Shown: piece after piece, positions 1,308 to 12,904 of the stretch
Position numbering within the stretch: the first letter of the stretch is position 1
Layout: each line of letters opens with the position of its first letter
From: a virus
Lineage: Duplodnaviria > Heunggongvirae > Uroviricota > Caudoviricetes
IMG/VR virus record: IMGVR_UViG_643348545_000006
Coordinates: 1-45,254 of that record
DNA: 45,254 bases
Reading direction: 5' to 3' (one strand)
Made by a program: the position numbers and the translations under genes
Notes under the pieces: generated by a model
Database searches by the model: none
Seen by the model: the letters and a program-made list of their open reading frames with translations, nothing else
What the model was told of the DNA's origin: nothing

Positions 1308-3779
1308 TTAAAAATCAGCCTGACTCGGGATCAGTTTTTGCCAGATAGCTGAAACGTATTTTGCCTGATAACGGGCGTCATCAAGTGCATTATGGCGCTC
1401 ACCTTCGAATGGGGTAGCAGTTCTGGCATCGAAGTCTATGGCTTTCCCCAGCTCAACGATTGTGCGTACATCGCGATCGTTGTAGTAACGCCACGGGCAG
1501 GGGATCCCCTGCCGTTCGTATGAACGGCGCAAAATCGTGTTGTCGAAGTTGGCTCCATTTCCCCAGACCTGAACAAAAAATTCACCGGAGTTTTCGTCGA
1601 TAAATTCCCGCAATTGTAACAGTGCATCATCTAACGGGATTTCATCGGTCATAATGGCAGATTGCGCTTCGCGTGATTGCTTAAGCCACCATTTAATGGT
1701 GTCCCGATCAATGACCCCGCCAGCAGTTTCCAGATCGATAGTCTTACTAAATTCCGGTCCCATATCTCCGGTTTGCGGATCGAAAAATATTGCACCTATT
1801 GAGATGATCGGGGCATCAGGATTTTTTCCCATGGTTTCAAGGTCAATCATCAGATGGTGCCACAACCTGCTGGTGGATGTGATAACGTGATGACCGTTCA
1901 CCGTAATTAAGGGATCTGCCGTCTCGCCAGTTTCACTATCGCTGGCGTGATCCTGAGCGCTGCCAGCATTCTCCTTGTGTGGATGTTCAGCGCCTTCCAT
2001 TTCCTCCGGATCATCTTCCTGAACTTCAACCTGATACTCTTCATCGAATGTTTCCTGGTATGTTGCGTCGCCCATCACCGCGCCACAATCAGGGCAGTTG
2101 CCGCCGCCGGTCTGACCGCAGGCGGTGCAGATCTTTTCCGGTTCCTGTTGCACTACTGGTTCAGGTTGTTTCGTTTCTGGCTCGTTTTGTAACGCATTTG
2201 GGCTGTTTTGTTCCGCTTTCTGGTCGTTCTGTTCCGATTCTTGCTGGTTCTGGTCTACAGAATCGCGGGTTTCAATCCCCTTTACCCATTTCGGATCATT
2301 CGGGTCGCTAATCCCTGCAACAAATTCTCCGCGAGAGGCAGCAAGCAACTTATCGGCGTCAGGCTGGCTGATACTGGCTGCCTGCATAATTTTGTTTACT
2401 TCGTCAGCGGTAACTTTTACCAGGTCTGGTTGTGCGGTCGTGTCAGATGCATCAGTATTTTGTTGTGAACCTGTGTATGTGCCGTTTTTGCGTGCGAAGT
2501 ATTCCTCTTTTGTGATTTCCGTAGCTCCCAAGGCTAGTGCTTTTTCCAGACCAGAAAGTTTGTTTGCGCGACCGTATTTTTCGCCATCCTTGTCGGTGAA
2601 GAGGAAGTAGAACGGCCCCTCACGCTCTACAGATGGTTCGACTTCCACTTTGCATTCGGTTTTTTCGTTGCCCGGAATTGCCGTTTCCACTGCATCAGTT
2701 TCTGGTACTGGCGACGGGAGAGTATCAGTTGCGCTCTGATTTCTTCCTTCATCTTCAAACACGCCCTTTGTAGTCAGGTATTCAGTAATGTATTTGTTCA
2801 GTGCCACAGGGTCTTTGTGAATGTCGATCGGACGTTCACGGACAAGGCCAAAAATAGTCTGGCGGTCGTAGCGAAGGGCATCAGGCTGTTTGCGCATTGA
2901 TGCCGAGATACGCTTCCAGTCTTCGCGGTCGTTGTCGATAACTTCATTTTTTGCCCAGCGATGGATGCTGCCGTCAATGTTTCCGGCATCCACATCACCA
3001 GGCCAGAGAGCGTAGGCCAGTTCGTCATCCAGTGTTTTCCATGTCTGCTTGTATTCGCGATGAATGGCAGCAATGACCGGGCTGATTTTTCCTGTTGAAT
3101 TTTCACTGTGCTGTTGATTGGTTCTGGCGCGGGCGAGATCAACAACAGACGTGTATTTTCCGGTTTCCTTGCGTTCACCTTCGCGACGTTTTTTCCAGAT
3201 GCGCATCTCTGCCTGAATTTCGGGCCATTTAGCACCAGGAATACATTTATGCTTAACCCACCCAATGGCGTGCAACTTAAGCTCCGGATACATGGCGTTA
3301 ACTTCTGGCATTTTCATCAACGCTTCAACGATATGTCCGTCGAATGTTGCCATGTCTTCCTGCAACAATTCCTGTGCGCTAATAACCATATCAACGGTGA
3401 TGTTTTCACATGTGTCGAACTTAACCATGACAGCGTTCTGTACTTCAGGGGCCAGCTTGTCAAAAGTGACGTTCATCGGATCGGATTCAGTCTCAACCGG
3501 GACAAAGGAAGCAGACTCCTCATCCCAGCGGTTTTCCTGCATATATTCAGCATCCCAGGAATCGAGGGCAGGGCGGGGTATACCGGGTTTATCCTCGCAG
3601 ACAAGAAATTTATAAGCGCAGTCCTGAGCAGCCGGATAATGCTCCAGGAATTGCCAGTGAAATTTTGCGCGGGCGCGACGTTCATCACCGGCTTCAATGG
3701 CAGTGGCTACAGCGACGGCACCTTCTTCCTTTATTGCCTGTTCGTCCGGAATGGCGGCGCAAATAAAGACTTTACTCAT
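1308..3779 (-). CDS. Prophage exonuclease, 823 aa, with Cys4 zinc ribbon and C-terminal DEDDh-type 3'-5' exonuclease domain (YdfE-like N-terminus)
   Basis: N-terminus MSKVFICAAIPDE resembles the Qin ydfE fragment as recalled; internal CTACGQTGGGNCPDCG zinc ribbon; C-terminus carries DLETMG, NGANFD and H-x4-D (HNALDDARY) motifs typical of DnaQ-like exonucleases. Confidence 0.75.
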   Translation of the reverse strand: MSKVFICAAIPDEQAIKEEGAVAVATAIEAGDERRARAKFHWQFLEHYPAAQDCAYKFLVCEDKPGIPRPALDSWDAEYMQENRWDEESASFVPVETESDPMNVTFDKLAPEVQNAVMVKFDTCENITVDMVISAQELLQEDMATFDGHIVEALMKMPEVNAMYPELKLHAIGWVKHKCIPGAKWPEIQAEMRIWKKRREGERKETGKYTSVVDLARARTNQQHSENSTGKISPVIAAIHREYKQTWKTLDDELAYALWPGDVDAGNIDGSIHRWAKNEVIDNDREDWKRISASMRKQPDALRYDRQTIFGLVRERPIDIHKDPVALNKYITEYLTTKGVFEDEGRNQSATDTLPSPVPETDAVETAIPGNEKTECKVEVEPSVEREGPFYFLFTDKDGEKYGRANKLSGLEKALALGATEITKEEYFARKNGTYTGSQQNTDASDTTAQPDLVKVTADEVNKIMQAASISQPDADKLLAASRGEFVAGISDPNDPKWVKGIETRDSVDQNQQESEQNDQKAEQNSPNALQNEPETKQPEPVVQQEPEKICTACGQTGGGNCPDCGAVMGDATYQETFDEEYQVEVQEDDPEEMEGAEHPHKENAGSAQDHASDSETGETADPLITVNGHHVITSTSRLWHHLMIDLETMGKNPDAPIISIGAIFFDPQTGDMGPEFSKTIDLETAGGVIDRDTIKWWLKQSREAQSAIMTDEIPLDDALLQLREFIDENSGEFFVQVWGNGANFDNTILRRSYERQGIPCPWRYYNDRDVRTIVELGKAIDFDARTATPFEGERHNALDDARYQAKYVSAIWQKLIPSQADF

Positions 3780-3873
3780 TTTGTTTTACCTCATTACAGA
3801 TTTCAGGGTGAACGAATCCCTGCCATTGCTGGCATTTTTAATCCGTTGGTATGGCGTTAATATGGCTGGCGGG

Positions 3874-4062
3874 TTATCCAGCCGGTATTTCGTTATTCAG
3901 GTTCAGCGATACTTTTTTTAACGGGAGGCATTCACCGGGGATTTTTTGTTCGTCCCTTACCTGAATGCAGGATGACTTACTGTCATAAATTCCGGTAATC
4001 ACATTTTGTGGCTCACCCGTTATAAGAAAAACGGTCATCACCAGTGCAAATGCTGAAGTCAC
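3874..4062 (-). CDS. ydfD: YdfD-like small lysis protein
   Basis: 62-aa translation MTSAFALVMTVFLITGEPQNVITGIYDSKSSCIQV... closely matches recalled Qin YdfD; translationally coupled (4-nt overlap) to dicB upstream. Confidence 0.75.
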   Translation of the reverse strand: MTSAFALVMTVFLITGEPQNVITGIYDSKSSCIQVRDEQKIPGECLPLKKVSLNLNNEIPAG

Positions 4063-4247
4063 TGCTGTTCTCCGATAATACCAAGTTCAAGAAGGGCAAT
4101 TCTGGAAAGTATGGAATTATCATTGAGAAGATAAGGTTCATATTTTCTCATCTTAATGGCATCTTCCGTAAACTCCCGGTTACTGAGCAGAACACCAATA
4201 TCAAAACAACCTTCAGACGTATTAACGTTTGGTAATAACGTTTCCAT
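4059..4247 (-). CDS. dicB: Cell division inhibitor DicB
   Basis: 62-aa translation METLLPNVNTSEGCFDIGV...FTEDAI... closely matches recalled E. coli DicB (MKTLLPNVNTSEGCFEIGV...); same size; sits directly downstream of DicF as in Qin. Confidence 0.85.
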   Translation of the reverse strand: METLLPNVNTSEGCFDIGVLLSNREFTEDAIKMRKYEPYLLNDNSILSRIALLELGIIGEQQ

Positions 4248-4427
4248 TATCGCGTCCTCAACAATGAATTTTGTGATGCGGTGCCTGGTGCCTCCAGGTG
4301 ACGTTAACCAGTTAACAATTAACGCCGGATACAGAGCATTCCCGTTACGCCCGTAAAAGACCGCTTGTTTTAACTGTTCCGCGTGCGCTGAGCCGCATTC
4401 ACCGCATCACAAAATTCACTTTAAAAA

Positions 4428-4480
4428 GGGCGGCAGAGCAGTCACGGAGTAAAACTGATACCGCCAAATGTCACCAGAAA
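4428..4480 (-). ncRNA. dicF: DicF small RNA (ftsZ-targeting sRNA)
   Basis: Minus-strand sequence TTTCTGGTGACATTTGGCGGTATCAGTTTTACTCCGTGACTGCTCTGCCGCCC followed by a T-run matches recalled 53-nt DicF with one mismatch; upstream 8-bp stem (4517-4552) fits a processing structure. Confidence 0.8.
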
Positions 4481-4822
4481 ATTGATAACAGAGGGCGTTG
4501 TAGCGGGGTTGTCACTTAAGCGTATGGTCAACCTGACAACCCGGTGCATTTTCTGGAGCAATGGAGGAAACCCCAGCCATACTTACCGCCGCGCCATTTC
4601 GCGGATTGCCACAACCGGAAGCGCACGGTCGACGAAAATTTAACGACAGGCTATCTATGAACCAGCTACCTCGCCGTGCGCTTTCGCGTTATGGTCTGAC
4701 TTTTCAGGGAAATATCCTTTCAGTAAACTGTCAGTGCCGGATTCTTATCCGTGTCCGGCGCACGACCACACGCTGTCACGAGAGGTCTCCATTCTCAACC
4801 AGTAACCTCAATGGAGGATAAA

Positions 4823-5017
4823 ATGTCAGAGCAGGAGTTAAAACTTGGTGCATGTTATTGTGTTCTCAAGGAGCTGGTACACATGCTTCCATCTACTCAG
4901 TATCAACAGTTAGTTGGCAATTTAAATCAGCGAATCGAAGCTATGTTAAAATCTGATGGTTTTAATAACGTAGAAACGCTGATGCTAAAAAGATATCTTG
5001 ATGGATTAATCAGATAA
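4823..5017 (+). CDS. Hypothetical small protein (64 aa), AT-rich, opposite in orientation to the leftward early operon
   Basis: ATG at 4823 preceded by GGAGGA with about 5-nt spacing; markedly AT-rich coding sequence; overlaps the 3' end of the convergent 116-aa gene by 12 nt. Confidence 0.4.
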   Translation: MSEQELKLGACYCVLKELVHMLPSTQYQQLVGNLNQRIEAMLKSDGFNNVETLMLKRYLDGLIR

Positions 5018-5356
5018 CATTTTTTTACGGCGTTCATATTCGTTAATATTTATGAAGCCTGTTGCCAGAAGCAGTTCGTTAATTTCATGGTTGTTTGGCT
5101 GTTTCTGGCTCTTTGAACTGGGATCTTCCACTTCTTTTTCTGCAAATTGTTTTGCTGTATCCTCTGTGCCATGGATATTTAAAGCTGTATCTGAAAACAG
5201 CCCAGTAAACGCATCGCGCACATTACGAGCCATATTATCAGTGTCTTTTTTTGTTACCGATTCCAATTCAAGTTCGTTCAGACGATGACGAAGTGTGTGT
5301 GCTGCAATCTCCTGGATTGAAGGAGGTAAATCTTTAAATTCCATCGTCAACCTCAT
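5006..5356 (-). CDS. Hypothetical early-left operon protein (116 aa)
   Basis: ORF translationally coupled to the upstream 77-aa ORF (start and stop share 1 nt at 5356); no recognisable motif. Confidence 0.5.
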   Translation of the reverse strand: MRLTMEFKDLPPSIQEIAAHTLRHRLNELELESVTKKDTDNMARNVRDAFTGLFSDTALNIHGTEDTAKQFAEKEVEDPSSKSQKQPNNHEINELLLATGFININEYERRKKMLSD

Positions 5357-9334: not shown

Positions 9335-10105
9335 ATGGAAACCGTATCTGACGCACTGAAAGCACTGAAAAAAGCCTCTTCACATGTGGTGGCAGCTCGC
9401 CTTGGAATCAGTCGTGAAGAGGCTGTCAACGAGCTGTGGGAACTCAAAAGAAATGGCGTCGTTGATAAAACTGGTCACACCTGGTTTCTGGCTGGCGAAG
9501 GTGAATCCCGGGTAACCGAAGAGCGGCCAGTAAAATCTGAAGCACAGGATATGCTGACCGGGGAGGTCGAACAAAAAGTTACCGCAGACATGATGATTGA
9601 GTTTATCGGTCAGGATGGGGCTAAAACGTGTGAGGAACTGGCGGGTAAGTTCGGTGTCAGTACTCGCAAGGTTGCTTCCACGCTGGCGGTGGTAACCGCA
9701 ACGGGGCGGCTGGCACGCGTTAATCAGAACGGTAAATTTCGTTACTGCATGCCGGGCGATAATTTACCAGCAGAGCCGAAAGCCGCGCTGGTAACGGAAA
9801 GTGATGGTAAGGCCTTTCCTCAGCCAGCAGGTGCTGCGTTACCAGTCCGGGAAGCCGCAACACAGGAAGAAATTAAAACAGAAACTGTGGCGGACATTGT
9901 GCAGCCGTTGCCATCGTTTACCGAAACGCAAGCAGATGAGCTGATTTTTCCGTCCCTTCGCAGGGCAAACCTGGCGCTGCGCAGGGCGAAAAGTGATGTT
10001 CAGAAGTGGGAGCGAGTCTGCGCCGCGCTGCGGGAGCTGAACAAGCACCGGGATATTGTTCGACAGATTACTGATTCTTCCCGCCGTGTTGTATCGGAAA
10101 AGTGA
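9335..10105 (+). CDS. Hypothetical phage protein (256 aa) with two winged-helix-like segments
   Basis: ORF following the DnaC-like gene; two HTH-like stretches (AARLGISREEAVNELWELKRNG and CEELAGKFGVSTRKVASTLA); function unknown. Confidence 0.55.
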   Translation: METVSDALKALKKASSHVVAARLGISREEAVNELWELKRNGVVDKTGHTWFLAGEGESRVTEERPVKSEAQDMLTGEVEQKVTADMMIEFIGQDGAKTCEELAGKFGVSTRKVASTLAVVTATGRLARVNQNGKFRYCMPGDNLPAEPKAALVTESDGKAFPQPAGAALPVREAATQEEIKTETVADIVQPLPSFTETQADELIFPSLRRANLALRRAKSDVQKWERVCAALRELNKHRDIVRQITDSSRRVVSEK

Positions 10106-10543
10106 TTGCCGGAGGCGCTTATGGCAAAAGTATTTACACAAGAAGAGCGGGAAAAAATTAAAGGGCAGGTTGTTGAACTTGTACGTCTGAGCGGTCGCGA
10201 GACGTTGCGGCAACTGGAAGCCAAGACAGGTACGACAAGATATCTGATGAGTGTTCTCGCCAGAGAGCTGGTTGCCAGTGGCGATGTATACAACTCTGGT
10301 TACGGGTTATTCCCGCCTGAACAGGCGCGTAAGGACTGGCAAAACGCCCGCAAAAAACTCTCAAGGGCAAATCTGAAGAAACCATCTGTGGTTGATCCTG
10401 ACCTTATCTGGTCATTACCAGACGGAGAAATACGCCGCTACGACAGGCGTCAAAACATAATCTGTAGCGAGTGCCGGAAGAGTGAAGTTATGCAGCGCAT
10501 ATTGTCGTTTTATCAGGGGGATGTTCGGTATTTATTGAAGTGA
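10106..10543 (+). CDS. Hypothetical phage protein (145 aa)
   Basis: ORF abutting the previous gene stop; no recognisable motif beyond a CxxC pair. Confidence 0.5.
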   Translation: MPEALMAKVFTQEEREKIKGQVVELVRLSGRETLRQLEAKTGTTRYLMSVLARELVASGDVYNSGYGLFPPEQARKDWQNARKKLSRANLKKPSVVDPDLIWSLPDGEIRRYDRRQNIICSECRKSEVMQRILSFYQGDVRYLLK

Positions 10544-10710
10544 CGAGATTAAAGTGCATTAGTTCAGATGCAAATTGACATTTTGTGGCACAGGGTAGAG
10601 CTAGCGTGGTTGTCCGCTTTGTGCCAGAAGCGGACATAGCAGGTGCCAGATGCATTTGTTATTCTTCATTGAATTGAGCAGTATCCTTAACAGGAACTCT
10701 GAATACATAA

Positions 10711-11349
10711 ATGAAGATGAAAAACATGTCTGAAGTGTTGACCCAAGAAAAGCTTATTTTTGTTGCCCAGAGACTAAAGGCCCTCGCGCAGTCAGGCCTG
10801 ACCTATTCAAAAGACGTCTTTGACAAGGAACGCTATGAAGCCTTGCGTGAAATTGCCGCTGGACTGCTGAGTTCGCAGTTTGATATTAGCCGCAATGATT
10901 TGTTTCATGTATCGGAAACGGGTTACGCGACGCCCAAAACAGATGTGCGTGCGTTTATCCTGCGTAATAATCGTATTCTGATGGTGAAAGAGGCTGCAGA
11001 TGGATTATGGAGTCTTCCTGGCGGATGGGCAGATGTTGGAGATACACCTTCTGAAGCTGTGCGTCGAGAGGTCGAAGAAGAAACCGGATTAAAAGTCAGA
11101 GTGACTAAACTATTGGGAGTTTGGGATCGTAATCTTCACGGCCATCCGCCTTTACCCTGGCATGTTTACAAGCTGATTTTTCTCTGTGAAGAAGTAGGTG
11201 GCAGCCTGTCAATCAGCCATGAGTCACTCGATGCTGATTTTTTTGATGTCAACGACCTGCCTGAATTGTCGCTTTCAAGAATTGTGCCTGAGCAGATTGC
11301 TGTCAGCCTGAGAGTAGCGAAAGGTGATGAAAAAACATGGTTTGATTAA
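10711..11349 (+). CDS. Nudix hydrolase with N-terminal extension
   Basis: Canonical Nudix box GGWADVGDTPSEAVRREVEEETGL (Gx5Ex7REuxEExGu); coding sequence more AT-rich than the phage backbone. Confidence 0.85.
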   Translation: MKMKNMSEVLTQEKLIFVAQRLKALAQSGLTYSKDVFDKERYEALREIAAGLLSSQFDISRNDLFHVSETGYATPKTDVRAFILRNNRILMVKEAADGLWSLPGGWADVGDTPSEAVRREVEEETGLKVRVTKLLGVWDRNLHGHPPLPWHVYKLIFLCEEVGGSLSISHESLDADFFDVNDLPELSLSRIVPEQIAVSLRVAKGDEKTWFD

Positions 11350-11372
11350 CTTTCTTCTGCAACCATTAAGGA

Positions 11373-12017
11373 ATGGCAATGATATTCAACGCTAAGGGTT
11401 TTTTATTCGATATGGACGGTACGCTGGTTGATTCAACAGCCGTAGTGGAAAGCGTCTGGAGAGATTTTTGTGCAGAATACGGTCTTGATACTCAGGCTGT
11501 GATTGCTTACGCACACGGGCGGCAAACGATTGATACACTGACGCATTTTATTGGTGCAGGTGAGAAAACCAATAAAATCGCGGCCTCACTCGAAGAGGTT
11601 GAAATCAACACGACAGAAGGCGTTACTGAAGTAAAGGGGGCCGCTGCACTCTTATCAAAACTGCCACCGGATAGCTGGGCACTTGTCACTTCTGCAGGCA
11701 GAATGCTTGCCGAAAACAGGATGAAAGCGGCTAATCTCCCCTTACCCATAGTAATGGTGTGTGCAGAAGATGTAATGACGGGAAAACCAAGTCCCGAGGG
11801 TTACATCAAAGCAGCTTTGGCTTTGGGCCTTGAGCCTGGTGAATGCGTGGTATTTGAGGATGCATCTGCGGGTATAAAAGCAGGGCTGGCAAGTGGAGCT
11901 TCGGTAATAGCTGTTCAGCCTGACGCTCTGGGATCATCTGAAGCCCATGCCGTCAGCGAACTGTCTGACATTATGGTCAAGATTTCCGGAGAACGTTTCA
12001 ATATCATCTGTGGTTAA
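11373..12017 (+). CDS. HAD-superfamily phosphatase (beta-phosphoglucomutase-like subfamily)
   Basis: Motif I FDMDGTLVDS at the N-terminus, GKPSPEGY and FEDASAGIKAG downstream motifs characteristic of HAD sugar phosphatases. Confidence 0.85.
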   Translation: MAMIFNAKGFLFDMDGTLVDSTAVVESVWRDFCAEYGLDTQAVIAYAHGRQTIDTLTHFIGAGEKTNKIAASLEEVEINTTEGVTEVKGAAALLSKLPPDSWALVTSAGRMLAENRMKAANLPLPIVMVCAEDVMTGKPSPEGYIKAALALGLEPGECVVFEDASAGIKAGLASGASVIAVQPDALGSSEAHAVSELSDIMVKISGERFNIICG

Positions 12018-12581
12018 TCACGTTACACAATACGCATCAATGGACGCTGAGTAGTTCGCGAGTTTTAAACTTCCAACGTCCGCTTTTCGCTCAAAGCGGA
12101 CTAGAAGGTTAGCTTGCGTCGGACTTGGCGTATTTAAAGAAGTGCTGGTGGTGACTGGTTGTTGTGTTCCATTTCTACAGAACAAAATCACAGAAACTAT
12201 ACCCAATAGTTGTATTGAATCACTGACGAGACAGCCTCATATTTATCAGGACTGGTGTACGTCCAATACAGGAGGTTGTGGTGCTGGTTCTCAAATGTGC
12301 GCTGGCTATTGCTGCTGTAATGGCAATTTATTGCCTTGCTGTTGTTCTTATGGATCGCCTTTCTGATTGATTTCATATTGGCGAGGTGACGGGAGTTAAG
12401 TAGAATGGCTGCGGGTGCTTGAGGCTATCTGTCTCAGGCATGAACACCAAAGGCAGATAGAGAAAAGCCCCAGTTAACATTACGCGTCCTGCAAGACGCT
12501 TAACATTAATCTGAGGCCATATCTATGCTCTACACACGTAGGTTAGCCTCTTACGTGCCGAAAGGCAAGGAGAAGCAGGCT

Positions 12582-12737
12582 ATGAAGCAGCAAAAGGCGA
12601 TGCTAATCGCCCTGATCGTCATCTGTTTAACCGTCATAGTGACGGCACTGGTAACGAGGAAAGACCTCTGCGAGGTACGAATCCGAACCGGCCAGACGGA
12701 GGTCGCTGTCTTCACAGCTTACGAACCTGAGGAGTAA
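12582..12737 (+). CDS. hokD: Hok/Gef-family type I toxin (HokD/RelF-like)
   Basis: 51-aa translation MKQQKAMLIALIVICLTVIVTALVTRKDLCEVRIRTGQTEVAVFTAYEPEE matches recalled HokD; structured leader upstream and a hairpin plus terminator downstream. Confidence 0.85.
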   Translation: MKQQKAMLIALIVICLTVIVTALVTRKDLCEVRIRTGQTEVAVFTAYEPEE

Positions 12738-12904
12738 GAGACCAGGCGAGGGAGAAATCCCTCGCCACCTCTGATGAGTCAGGCATCCTCAACGCACCCG
12801 CACTTAACCCGCTTCGGCGGGTTTTGTTTTTTCCTGGCATTCTGGTTTACAATTCGCACGTCAGCCTGAACAACTGGCACCTGCTGCGCCAGCAGAGAAA
12901 ACAG

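What the first reader, a model, noticed from the sequence alone, without database searches (positions are those of the whole stretch)
10612..12101. Nudix hydrolase plus HAD phosphatase cargo cassette bounded by near-identical hairpins
Two metabolic-type enzymes (Nudix box protein 10711-11349; HAD phosphatase with FDMDGTLVDS 11373-12017) sit inside the early-right operon where lambdoid phages carry variable nin-region genes, and their coding sequence is more AT-rich than the backbone. The cassette is flanked by two closely similar stem-loops: GTCCGCTTTGTGCCAGAAGCGGAC (10612-10635) and GTCCGCTTTTCGCTCAAAGCGGAC (12078-12101), each followed by (A)TAG. A pyrophosphatase plus phosphatase pair could process a nucleotide-sugar or ADP-ribose-type substrate in two steps; a role in countering nucleotide-signal or NAD-depletion defences is speculative. 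The matched hairpins may mark cassette boundaries or recombination scars.
Basis: partly seen in the sequence, partly recalled or inferred. Interest (0 to 1): 0.55.

Follow-up and report, generated by a model that had tools for sequence, protein, structure and literature searches.

The report
Hairpin-bounded swappable phage gene cassette
The two hairpins are real and mark the exact ends of a Nudix-plus-phosphatase gene cassette that has recently moved, almost unchanged, between unrelated E. coli phages, which points to a possible mechanism for how phage defence hotspots swap their genes.

Summary
Both 24-nt hairpins and both genes (a Nudix hydrolase with a Nudix_N domain, and a YfbT-like HAD phosphatase) lie at the stated coordinates.

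The hairpins are cassette boundaries. The segment 10612-12102 recurs at 99.2-99.7% identity in at least four other settings: a second lambdoid flank type, the G-FI (Z/fun) hotspot of P2-like phages, and two unrelated chromosomal islands. In each setting homology starts and stops inside the hairpins. The outer arms follow the host context. The inner arms and loops follow the cargo.

The hairpins are not specific to this cassette. The left type (loop TGTGCCA) and right type (loop TCGCTC) flank dozens of other cargos in the same slots, many of them defence systems (CBASS, DRT, TIR). Cassettes can also be stacked in tandem.

The P2 copies were annotated in 2004 as the "left/right inverted repeat" of the Z region. 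The same palindrome is an intergenic repeat in other Enterobacterales and in soil Alphaproteobacteria. It is rare in E. coli.

The recombination mechanism is not established. It could be short-homology recombination or a trans-acting recombinase.

The enzymes' substrate and any anti-defence role remain untested.

The parts
10545..10611 (+). Conserved left flank of the slot (…TTGACATTTTGTGGCACAGGGTAGAGCTAGCGTGGTT). It belongs to the phage backbone.
   Evidence: It aligns with the annotated 'left inverted repeat' of the P2 Z region (CTTACATATCTATGGCACAGAGTAAAGCCTAATCTGACA). It is conserved in lambdoid relatives that carry other cargo. No sigma-70 promoter was called under the strict rule.
10612..10635 (+). 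Left (L-type) boundary hairpin: outer arm GTCCGCTT, loop TGTGCCAG, inner arm AAGCGGAC.
   Evidence: The outer arm varies with context (GTCCGCTT, GTCCGCTC, GTCTGCTC, TTCTGCTT), while the loop end and inner arm stay constant with this cargo. Statistics over 67 context-cargo combinations are.
10711..11349 (+). Nudix hydrolase with an N-terminal Nudix_N domain (212 aa).
   Evidence: PF00293 and PF12535. Closest solved structures are 3q1p (E 7e-50), 3o8s 'ADP-ribose pyrophosphatase' and 4hfq. It matches phrog_25541. Chromosomal orthologues of about 70% identity occur in Cedecea, Leclercia and Pseudescherichia.
11373..12017 (+). HAD-IA phosphatase, YfbT-like (214 aa), with motif I FDMDGT.
   Evidence: PF13419. 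NF008610 sugar phosphatase scores 189 bits, below its 282-bit cutoff. PDB 2qlt glycerol-3-phosphatase matches at E 2e-22. It matches phrog_8468.
12078..12101 (+). Right (R-type) boundary hairpin: inner arm GTCCGCTTT, loop TCGCTC, outer arm AAAGCGGAC.
   Evidence: The outer arm is context-specific (AAAGCGGAC, CAAGCAGAC, ATAACAGAC, ATAGCAGAC), while the inner arm and loop are constant.
12102..12260 (+). Conserved right flank of the slot (backbone), including a Chi site GCTGGTGG at 12144-12151.
   Evidence: It is 98-99% identical in relatives carrying other cargo.
10106..10543 (+). DUF977 (LygF-like) gene, the left backbone anchor of the hotspot.
   Evidence: PF06163 at 1.5e-28. It is the shared upstream gene in E. 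coli prophages with alternative cargos.
12413..12737 (+). hok/sok type I toxin-antitoxin locus, the right backbone anchor of the hotspot.
   Evidence: Rfam sok RF01794 scores 114.7 bits at 12413-12587. PF01848 HOK_GEF matches ORF 12525-12737.

Best explanation
The Nudix-HAD pair is a mobile cargo cassette sitting in a hotspot of a lambdoid E. coli prophage, between DUF977 and hok/sok. The two hairpins are the cassette's exchange junctions.

Each hairpin is a member of a conserved palindrome family with arms GTCYGCTY / RAGCRGAC. There is a left type with loop TGTGCCA and a right type with loop TCGCTC.

Cargo is swapped between replicons that carry such a left-right pair by two crossovers, one inside each palindrome. 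As a result the outer arm stays with the recipient and the inner arm travels with the cargo. This is shown by sequence comparison.

The same system serves the P2 Z/fun hotspot, several lambdoid slots, islands and chromosomal loci, and most of its cargo is anti-phage defence.

Which enzyme makes the crossovers is inferred, not shown. My estimate is about 45% for short-homology recombination or template switching at the 15-24 nt of shared palindrome (phage Red/RecET-type or host functions). I put about 35% on a dedicated recombinase or transposase acting in trans on the palindromes. The remainder covers a mixture or another route.

The enzymes most likely act in sequence on a nucleoside-diphosphate-X compound: Nudix gives NMP plus X-phosphate, and HAD then gives X plus phosphate. 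This is inferred from family membership only. The biological role (defence, counter-defence or a hitch-hiking metabolic gene pair) is unknown.
For: (1) Megablast places window 10612-12102, and nothing beyond it, at 99.5% identity in P2-like phages P24C9 and 10W, between gpG and gpFI. Three of the eight mismatches lie in the outer arms.

(2) The cassette occurs in 22 of 5426 E. coli genomes at 99.4% identity or more. It is found in the lambdoid slot, a decayed prophage near paoD (L014) and an integrase island (L015). The outer arms differ in each, and the inner arms and loops are identical. Two lambdoid flank types carry it in viral contigs L122 and L133.

(3) At left sites, pairs with the same cargo in different contexts differ by 1.00 nt in the outer arm and 0.14 nt in the inner arm. 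Pairs with the same context and different cargo differ by 0.15 and 1.12. At right sites the figures are 1.85 versus 0.77, and 0.37 versus 2.92.

(4) A second full-length case behaves the same way. L058 (lambdoid) and L067 (P2-like) are 99.2% identical over 1853 nt, with the same arm behaviour.

(5) The same slot holds QueH, DUF5677, an Sll1717 ATPase, an alpha/beta hydrolase, a methyltransferase and others between the same half-hairpins.

(6) The P2 Z-region flanks are annotated 'left/right inverted repeat' and align with the lambdoid flank. P2's own fun(Z) region has the left and right elements.

(7) A P2-like prophage in E. coli LS4 carries two stacked cassettes, L-c1-R, an 18-nt spacer, then L-c2-R. 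Right-spacer-left doublets recur in many loci.

(8) The polymorphic stem pair shows no covariation. The arms assort independently: at right sites CG 16, CA 15, TG 3, TA 3.

(9) Cargo elsewhere in the system includes DRT UG17 plus SLATT, CBASS, TIR and PDC-S39.
Against: No recombinase or transposase is linked to the cassette, and no circular or empty-site intermediate was found. The lambdoid slot is never empty in 5426 genomes; the smallest content is a roughly 250-nt remnant.

Breakpoints can only be placed between informative differences, roughly positions 8 to 16 of the left site. The data therefore cannot separate site-specific cleavage from homologous crossover.

Several relatives have decayed inner arms (L003-L005) or a deleted right hairpin (L049). 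Intact hairpins are therefore not required to keep a cargo.

The counts come from database records that are not phylogenetically independent.

For the enzymes, no substrate evidence exists. The proline expected about 16 residues after the Nudix box in ADP-ribose pyrophosphatases (from memory of the literature) is not at that position.
Confidence: 0.78

Rival explanations
1. A dedicated, trans-acting site-specific recombinase or hairpin-binding transposase recognises the 8-8-8 palindromes and cuts in the central 8 nt. Cassettes then move as integron-like units, with the right-spacer-left doublet playing the part of attC. Alternatively they move by recombinase-mediated cassette exchange between two heterospecific sites.
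For: Stem and loop sequence is very strongly conserved across unrelated contexts and even phyla. There are two fixed loop classes in a fixed order, left upstream and right downstream. Doublet spacing is constant at 15-19 nt. Tandem cassette arrays exist. The arms behave as independent half-sites without covariation. FimB/FimE-like tyrosine invertases occur near hairpins in three alphaproteobacterial loci.
Against: No enzyme was identified. The left and right central regions differ (TGTGCCAG versus TTCGCTCA), so simple excision between them by a tyrosine recombinase is not expected. The invertase association is not above what the hairpin density in those genomes would give, and one homologue context has no hairpins. 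None of about 30 enterobacterial hairpin loci encodes such an invertase.
Confidence: 0.35
2. The hairpins are RNA-level or transcriptional elements of a classical moron, such as a 5' stabiliser, a 3' protector, or a terminator or insulator. On this view they coincide with cassette ends only because morons are transcription units.
For: Both are stable stem-loops. The right hairpin lies 60 nt after the HAD stop and the left lies 75 nt before the Nudix start. The related palindromes in other bacteria are intergenic, as REP elements are, and REP elements are known to protect mRNA 3' ends (the REP function is from general knowledge).
Against: No T-run follows either hairpin, and neither is called by the terminator scan. 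Fold z-scores are only -1.7 to -2.6. Cargo genes lie on either strand relative to the left and right sites (P2-EC58, L006, Evi), so the left site is not a 5'-UTR element. Stem pairs do not covary, and C-A mismatches are as frequent as random assortment predicts. P2's annotated V-operon terminator is a different sequence. This view does not explain why homology between unrelated phages breaks inside the hairpin.
Confidence: 0.12
3. The cassette is a non-autonomous IS200/IS605-type element (a palindrome-associated transposable element) or a REP-doublet-type element. It would be moved as single-stranded DNA by a Y1 HUH transposase or RAYT supplied in trans.
For: Both ends carry hairpins with the same stem in the same orientation, as the left and right ends of IS200/IS605 do. 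The palindrome family is high-copy and intergenic in some genomes, up to 14 copies per 8 kb.
Against: In that family both hairpins lie wholly inside the element and cleavage is outside them (general knowledge). Here the outer arm belongs to the target. No conserved flanking tetranucleotide was seen, nor the GTAG head typical of REPs. No Y1 transposase appeared among recurrent neighbours. E. coli carries a median of one copy.
Confidence: 0.08
4. The similarity of the two hairpins is coincidental, or a local duplication scar with no general meaning.
For: Short two-copy repeats are often chance matches (a caveat stated in the output).
Against: None of 100 shuffles gave a match. Left-right pairs flank 31 distinct cassettes in viral contigs.
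Confidence: 0.01

Closest known systems
[quoted passage not shown] The paper is not held, so only its title and the GenBank annotation were used.
   Same: The boundary elements are the same. The inner ends of the annotated inverted repeats are the left and right hairpins. The identical Nudix-HAD cassette sits in that P2 slot in P24C9 and 10W. The lambdoid left flank aligns with the P2 left inverted repeat.
   Different: The window is a lambdoid prophage, not a P2-like one. Four points were not found in any text I could search: that the sites are shared across phage families and islands, that breakpoints map to the hairpin loop, that cassettes stack in tandem, and that the palindrome is an intergenic repeat in other bacteria.
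P2/P4 defence hotspots (Rousset et al. 2022, PMC9122126; 'Shuttling, swapping, and mixing', NAR 2026, PMC13586616)
   Same: It is the same kind of locus: rapidly swapped cargo, largely defence systems, and near-identical systems in different mobile elements and cryptic chromosomal sites.
   Different: Those papers state that the exchange mechanism is unknown and do not mention hairpins or inverted repeats. Here the junctions are mapped to conserved palindromes.
Integron gene cassettes with attC
   Same: Promoter-less modular cassettes are stacked in arrays and separated by a roughly 65-nt structured repeat. The outer part of the junction repeat belongs to the neighbour. Circle integration by a single crossover would give the tandem array seen in LS4.
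   Different: There are no R''/L''/L'/R' boxes, no GTTRRRY core and no intI nearby. Each junction has two hairpins, and cargo orientation is not fixed.
Acinetobacter pdif modules (gene modules flanked by XerC/D sites), and engineered recombinase-mediated cassette exchange with heterospecific lox/FRT sites (from general knowledge)
   Same: Cargo without its own recombinase is bounded by two palindromic arm-spacer-arm sites that differ in the spacer, and is found in many replicon contexts.
   Different: There is no sequence similarity to dif, cer or pdif sites. No recombinase is assigned, and activity is unproven.
REP/BIME extragenic palindromes, and the T4-type PeSL (promoter-early stem-loop) cassettes (from general knowledge)
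   Same: These are short conserved intergenic palindromes, often in doublets and high-copy in some genomes, that can serve as recombination points flanking mobile gene modules.
   Different: The sequence is unrelated to E. coli REP. There is no GTAG head and no RAYT. E. coli has a median of one copy. PeSLs carry an early promoter, and none was detected here.

Membership tests
P2 Z-region type inverted-repeat-bounded cassette | Cargo lies between the conserved left and right inverted-repeat elements | tested here: met
   The left and right hairpins of the window align with the inner ends of the annotated left and right inverted repeats of P2-EC46, P2-EC53 and P2-EC58, and of P2 itself.
P2 Z-region type inverted-repeat-bounded cassette | Location between gpG and gpFI of a P2-like phage | tested here: not met
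   The window slot lies between DUF977 and hok/sok of a lambdoid prophage. The identical cassette does occupy the G-FI slot in P24C9 and 10W.
P2 Z-region type inverted-repeat-bounded cassette | Different cargos at exactly the same position in related phages | tested here: met
   At least eight alternative cargos occupy the lambdoid slot. There are 31 distinct left-to-right cassettes in viral contigs.
Integron cassette / attC | An attC site with a GTTRRRY core and RYYYAAC inverse core, 57-141 nt long | tested here: not met
   The hairpins are 24 nt, with arms GTCCGCTT/AAGCGGAC and no GTTRRRY core.
Integron cassette / attC | An adjacent intI integrase and attI site | tested here: not met
   The neighbours are DUF977, DUF1627 and hok/sok. 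In P2 the neighbours are tail genes.
Intrinsic (rho-independent) terminator | A GC-rich stem-loop followed by a T-run | tested here: not met
   The hairpins are followed by ATAGCAGG and TAGAAGGT. Neither is listed by the terminator scan.
Moron (promoter + gene + terminator) | Its own sigma-70 promoter upstream and a terminator downstream | tested here: inconclusive
   TTGACA is present at 10575, but no acceptable -10 was called and no terminator was found. The AT bias is modest.
IS200/IS605-type element / PATE | Subterminal hairpins wholly inside the element, with cleavage outside them | tested here: not met
   The outer arms co-vary with the context, so the junction lies inside the hairpin.
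IS200/IS605-type element / PATE | A Y1 HUH transposase present in cis or in the genome | not tested
   None was seen among recurrent neighbours, but no HMM screen of whole genomes was possible.
REP/BIME | High copy number in intergenic regions of the host genome | tested here: not met
   In E. coli, 1624 of 5426 genomes have a copy, with a median of 1 and a maximum of 7. The feature is met in Alphaproteobacteria metagenome-assembled genomes (up to 14 per 8 kb) and is plausible in Pantoea, Enterobacter and Leclercia.
REP/BIME | A conserved GTAG/GTGG head and an associated RAYT | tested here: not met
   No GTAG head adjoins the stems. No RAYT was identified, though that search was not exhaustive.
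Xer (dif/pdif) module | 11-6/8-11 sites resembling the XerC and XerD arms | tested here: not met
   The arms GTCCGCTT/AAGCGGAC bear no resemblance to GGTGCGCATAA or TTATGTTAAAT. The comparison was with consensus sequences recalled from the literature.
Nudix hydrolase superfamily | Nudix fold and box (GX5EX7REUXEEXGU) | tested here: met
   PF00293 scores 68.4 bits against a 21.1 cutoff. The box reads GWADVGDTPSEAVRREVEEETGL, with D at the first E position.
ADP-ribose pyrophosphatase (specific activity) | Substrate specificity for ADP-ribose | not testable with these tools
   There are only names given by depositors or sources (3o8s, 'YjhB') and no NCBIfam equivalog above cutoff.
HAD phosphatase, subfamily IA (YfbT/HxpA-like) | DxDxT motif I, a cap domain, and an equivalog score | tested here: inconclusive
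   Motif I (DMDGT) is present and PF13419 scores 79 bits. NF008610 scores 189 bits, below its 282 cutoff. The protein is therefore a family member but not an equivalog of YfbT.
Known anti-phage defence system (PADLOC) | A match to a defence-system protein model | tested here: inconclusive
   The Nudix protein gives only a weak hit to candidate PDC-S07 (6.6e-10, Nudix domain only). The HAD protein gives none.

The most novel reading that the evidence does not exclude
The left and right palindromes are the recombination sites of an unrecognised cassette-exchange system that works like an integron but has no linked integrase. A trans-acting enzyme would cut in the hairpin loops. Cassettes, each carrying a right-spacer-left doublet, would circulate between P2-like phages, lambdoid phages, islands and chromosomes of Enterobacterales. 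This would account for the rapid swapping of phage defence hotspots. The same site family would have spread as a repeat in soil Alphaproteobacteria.
Probability: 0.3. Interest if true: 0.85.

Novelty: new variant of a known kind. Interest (0 to 1): 0.62.

Why it matters
Recent work on phage defence hotspots (2022 and 2026) says explicitly that the way cargo is exchanged is unknown and that defence systems encode no mobilisation functions. This finding supplies a concrete, testable candidate. It is a pair of 24-nt palindromes that delimit the swapped DNA to the nucleotide. They are shared by unrelated phage families, islands and chromosomes, and the breakpoints lie inside the hairpins.

If the sites are active, they would explain how near-identical defence or metabolic cassettes appear in P2-like and lambdoid phages. 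They would also give a sequence tag for finding hotspot cargo, including new defence or counter-defence genes. They might also be usable for cassette exchange in phage engineering.

The Nudix-HAD pair itself is a rare cargo, present in 22 of 5426 E. coli genomes, and its role is unknown.

Tried and rejected
- **Rfam:** the evalue-mode search found nothing at either hairpin in the window or in six hairpin-rich loci. Only sok, a weak isrK-like hit, ar35 and a tRNA turned up.
- **Promoter and terminator scan:** neither hairpin was called as a terminator, and no promoter was called in the left flank.
- **Empty-site search:** a synthetic left-flank plus hairpin plus right-flank query found no empty lambdoid slot in 5426 genomes. 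The smallest content was a roughly 250-nt remnant in strain A20.
- **Literature:** Nilsson 2004 and Odegrip 2006 are not held. No paper text contains the hairpin sequences. Keyword searches for hairpin, cassette or moron with P2 or lambdoid found no description.
- **Integron, Xer/dif, IS200/IS605 and resolvase res-site comparisons:** all were rejected on sequence or on junction position.
- **FimB/FimE-like invertase lead:** invertases lie near hairpins in Alphaproteobacteria, and the fimS inverted repeat TTGGGGCCAA matches the left loop at 8 of 10 positions. No association was established, and the arms are unrelated.
- **Origin of the gene pair:** I asked whether the pair is a conserved chromosomal operon. 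The Nudix gene stands alone in Cedecea and in L137. An 80%-identical Nudix-HAD pair exists next to an integrase without hairpins.
- **PADLOC on the two enzymes:** the result was uninformative.
- **Stem covariation:** none was found.
Full report
**1. Observation**

The shared pattern GTCCGCTT-N(4-12)-AAGCGGAC occurs nowhere else in the 45-kb window and in none of 100 shuffles. With 8-bp arms, both sites read arm-8 nt-arm.

The two ORFs between them are a Nudix hydrolase with an N-terminal Nudix_N domain (10711-11349) and a HAD-IA phosphatase (11373-12017). The cassette has 46.6% GC against 51.8% in the flanks. That is a modest AT bias, shared by 10.5% of equal-sized windows.

The setting is a lambdoid E. 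coli prophage. Replication genes, DUF1627 and DUF977 (LygF) lie upstream. Downstream lie hok/sok (Rfam sok, 114.7 bits), DUF968, RusA and Q. E. coli strain MLI121 carries the whole 2.7-kb region at 99.3% identity.

**2. The hairpins are the cassette boundaries**

A megablast of 10100-12800 against phage records matched P2-like phages P24C9 and 10W at 99.5% over query 513-2003. That interval is window 10612-12102, from the first base of the left hairpin to one base past the last base of the right hairpin (12101), and nothing else matched. In those phages the cassette sits between the tail-fibre assembly gene G and the sheath gene FI, which is the classical Z/fun hotspot.

Of the eight mismatches between the two copies, one lies in the outer arm of the left hairpin and two in the outer arm of the right hairpin.

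The cassette is rare. It occurs in 22 of 5426 complete E. coli genomes, always at 99.4% identity or more. It occurs in further contexts:
- a decayed prophage next to paoD (L014);
- an island with an ankyrin-repeat gene and an integrase (L015);
- a second lambdoid flank type (L133).

In every context the inner arm and loop are constant and the outer arm is different. On the left, GTCCGCTT, GTCCGCTC, GTCTGCTC or TTCTGCTT precedes TGTGCCAG-AAGCGGAC. On the right, GTCCGCTTT-TCGCTC is followed by AAAGCGGAC, CAAGCAGAC, ATAACAGAC or ATAGCAGAC. The junction between cargo and host DNA therefore lies inside each hairpin.

**3. The hairpins are generic to a hotspot, not to this cargo**

In other E. coli prophages the same DUF977-to-hokD slot carries many other cargos. 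These include QueH, DUF5677, an Sll1717-family ATPase, an alpha/beta hydrolase, DUF4406, a methyltransferase, and a regulator plus an acetyltransferase.

The backbone homology in those relatives runs through the outer arm and loop of the left hairpin. It resumes at the loop and outer arm of the right hairpin. Phage Evi has both hairpins intact around a different cargo.

GenBank entries for the P2 'Z-region' (AJ512680, AJ512682, AJ512683) annotate a 113-bp 'left inverted repeat' and a 91-bp 'right inverted repeat'. The inner ends of these repeats are these same hairpins. The lambdoid left flank (TTGACATTTTGTGGCACAGGGTAGAGCTAGCGTGGTT) aligns with the P2 left repeat. Phage P2 itself has the left element, and a degenerate right element, around orf30/fun(Z). 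Its annotated V-operon terminator is a different sequence.

**4. A wider cassette system**

About two-thirds of the hits are genuine left sites followed by an inner arm. They lie in two lambdoid flank types, the P2 flank and several other contexts. Left-right pairs on one strand, 0.6-6 kb apart, define 31 distinct cassettes.

Arm differences were counted over 67 left-site and 46 right-site context-cargo combinations:

| Site | Comparison | Outer-arm differences (nt) | Inner-arm differences (nt) |
|---|---|---|---|
| Left | Same cargo, different context | 1.00 | 0.14 |
| Left | Same context, different cargo | 0.15 | 1.12 |
| Right | Same cargo, different context | 1.85 | 0.77 |
| Right | Same context, different cargo | 0.37 | 2.92 |

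These records are not phylogenetically independent, but the direction is consistent.

At least five cargos begin identically in lambdoid and P2 contexts. One was checked full-length. L058 and L067 are 99.2% identical over 1853 nt, again with context-specific outer arms.

Cassettes can be stacked. A P2-like prophage in E. coli LS4 has L-cargo1-R, an 18-nt spacer, then L-cargo2-R in the G-FI slot. Right-spacer-left doublets with 15-19 nt spacers recur in many loci.

**5. What the system carries**

PADLOC identifies several cargos as defence systems:
- DRT (RT_UG17 plus SLATT);
- CBASS (cyclase plus a SAVED nuclease, with Cap2/Cap3-like ORFs);
- a second CBASS cyclase;
- a TIR protein;
- candidate PDC-S39.

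Other cargos look metabolic. These include a glyoxalase-family protein, a GFA-like protein, a deaminase, a BCCT transporter, and a regulator plus GNAT. These assignments were made by reading the sequences and were not all tested. The Nudix-HAD pair belongs to this minority of metabolic-looking cargo.

**6. Where else the palindrome occurs**

The full left hairpin has 20 specified bases, and about one chance hit is expected in 596 Gb.

Hits include chromosomes of Pantoea, Enterobacter, Leclercia, Mixta, Klebsiella spallanzanii, Phytobacter, Citrobacter, Rahnella and others. There, single hairpins and right-spacer-left doublets lie between ordinary genes.

Unexpectedly, most hits are in soil Alphaproteobacteria metagenome-assembled genomes (Pseudolabrys, Xanthobacteraceae, Hyphomicrobiales). 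In these genomes the same stem, with loops GTGCCA, GGGTCA or ACCCCC, is a dense intergenic repeat, with up to 14 copies in 8 kb. I cannot explain this cross-phylum identity.

In E. coli, near-perfect copies occur in only 1624 of 5426 genomes, with a median of one and a maximum of seven. In E. coli the palindrome is therefore an accessory, prophage-linked element rather than a REP-type core repeat.

An 84%-identical Nudix gene on its own lies between an identical left hairpin and a right-type hairpin in a chromosome-like contig (L137). The association of this gene with the palindromes therefore predates the present cassette. An 80%-identical Nudix-HAD pair also exists without hairpins.

**7. 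What the hairpins are not**

- They are not intrinsic terminators. No T-run follows them and the scan does not call them.
- They match no Rfam family.
- They lack the attC core and have no integrase next to them.
- The junction position excludes the IS200/IS605 layout.
- They do not resemble Xer sites (comparison from memory).
- Cargo genes lie on either strand relative to the left and right sites. This argues against a 5'-UTR role.
- The one polymorphic stem position shows no covariation. C-A mismatches are as common as random assortment of arms predicts. This fits arms of different origin being joined by crossovers in the loop. It does not fit strong selection for pairing.

**8. Mechanism**

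Shown by sequence comparison: the cassette is delimited by the two palindromes, the crossovers fall inside them, and exchange has occurred recently between unrelated replicons.

Inferred: how the crossovers are made.
- One route is short-homology recombination or template switching, using the 15-24 nt of shared palindrome. This needs no new enzyme and fits the absence of any linked recombinase.
- The other route is a trans-acting recombinase or transposase. This fits the strong conservation of stems and loops, the two fixed loop classes, the constant doublet spacing and the tandem arrays. Integration of a circle carrying a right-spacer-left doublet by one crossover would give the LS4 arrangement.

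I rate these at roughly 45% and 35%.

The left and right central regions differ (TGTGCCAG versus TTCGCTCA, or TGAGCGAA in reverse complement). Left-by-right excision is therefore not expected, and exchange would need left-by-left plus right-by-right events. This resembles engineered cassette exchange between heterospecific sites.

A FimB/FimE-like invertase lead from alphaproteobacterial loci could not be substantiated.

**9. The enzymes**

The Nudix protein is closest to a solved family of roughly 205-residue Nudix_N proteins: 3q1p at E 7e-50, 3o8s (deposited as ADP-ribose pyrophosphatase) and 4hfq. From memory, 3q1p is the Bacillus cereus CDP-choline pyrophosphatase. No NCBIfam equivalog is reached. 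Orthologues of about 70% identity are ordinary chromosomal genes in Cedecea, Leclercia, Pseudescherichia and others.

The HAD protein resembles the E. coli sugar phosphatase YfbT, but scores below the equivalog cutoff.

A two-step reaction is the most likely chemistry: NDP-X to NMP plus X-phosphate, then X-phosphate to X plus phosphate. The substrate and the benefit to phage or host are unknown. The PADLOC hit (PDC-S07, 6.6e-10) reflects the Nudix domain only.

**10. Novelty**

The inverted repeats of the P2 Z region were deposited in GenBank in connection with a 2004 paper. Its title proposes site-specific recombination. I could not read the paper.

The 2022 and 2026 hotspot papers do not mention hairpins or repeats, and state that the exchange mechanism is unknown. 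No searchable text contains the hairpin sequences.

The finding is therefore a new variant of a known kind. It is the same boundary elements, now seen in a lambdoid slot. Cross-family cassette identity, loop-level breakpoints, tandem stacking and a link to a broad palindromic repeat family are added to the earlier picture.

Noticed in passing
window 12144-12151, and window-wide (+ strand: 1280, 1869, 7410, 12144, 13410, 15302, 15619, 20316, 21958, 22596; - strand: 13868, 16433, 17868): The window is rich in Chi sites (GCTGGTGG) and they are strand-biased: 10 on the + strand and 3 on the - strand in 45 kb, where under one per strand is expected by chance. One lies 43 nt to the right of the right hairpin, in the conserved slot flank. 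It is oriented so that RecBCD entering from the right would stimulate recombination towards the cassette (this orientation rule is from general knowledge).
   Followed up: partly
L143-L262 (genome-contig loci), e.g. L175, L160, L228: The exact left hairpin (20 specified bases) is a dense intergenic repeat in soil Alphaproteobacteria metagenome-assembled genomes (Pseudolabrys, Xanthobacteraceae, Hyphomicrobiales). It is usually paired with a second hairpin of the same stem, with loop ACCCCC or GGGTCA, 17-20 nt upstream. Identity of stem and loop across phyla is unexplained.
   Followed up: partly
L263 (E. coli LS4, NZ_CP024717) 2122-3923: A P2-like prophage has two hairpin-bounded cassettes stacked in the G-FI slot: L, cargo 1, R, an 18-nt spacer, L, cargo 2 (DUF6650), R.
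   Followed up: yes
L137 3889-4727 (Logan SRR27258020 contig): A Nudix gene 84% identical in protein sits alone between an identical left hairpin and a right-type hairpin. It lies between GST and LysR genes, in what looks like an enterobacterial chromosome.
   Followed up: partly
L194, L223, L262, L265-L275: FimB/FimE-like tyrosine invertases of about 200 aa form a very abundant family in soil metagenomes, 76-94% identical to one another. They lie within a few hundred nt of hairpin doublets in several alphaproteobacterial loci. The E. coli fimS inverted repeat TTGGGGCCAA matches the left loop TTTGTGCCAA at 8 of 10 positions. No specific association was established.
   Followed up: partly
window 10585-10592, 10620-10627, 10642-10648: The motif GTGCCAG of the left-hairpin loop recurs 15 nt downstream of the hairpin (GGTGCCAGA). 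Its reverse complement (GTGGCACAG) lies 20 nt upstream. The upstream copy is conserved in the P2 left inverted repeat. Alternative pairings with the loop are predicted.
   Followed up: no
window 12142-12366 (+): A cysteine-rich 74-aa ORF (…CGAGSQMCAGYCCCNGNLLPCCCSYGSPF) with a GTG start lies in the conserved right flank between the right hairpin and sok. It has no Pfam match, and it is unclear whether it is a gene.
   Followed up: no
window 12746-12827 (+): There is a weak sub-threshold Rfam match to the isrK Hfq-binding sRNA (27.8 bits against a gathering score of 50, E 0.0025), just downstream of hok.
   Followed up: no
L002 (Escherichia phage 11W, OM475429) 4020-5250: The deposited record of this P2-like phage has the Nudix-HAD cassette riddled with N runs, and it is annotated only as 'similar to hypothetical protein'. 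This looks like a sequencing or assembly quality problem in that record rather than biology.
   Followed up: no
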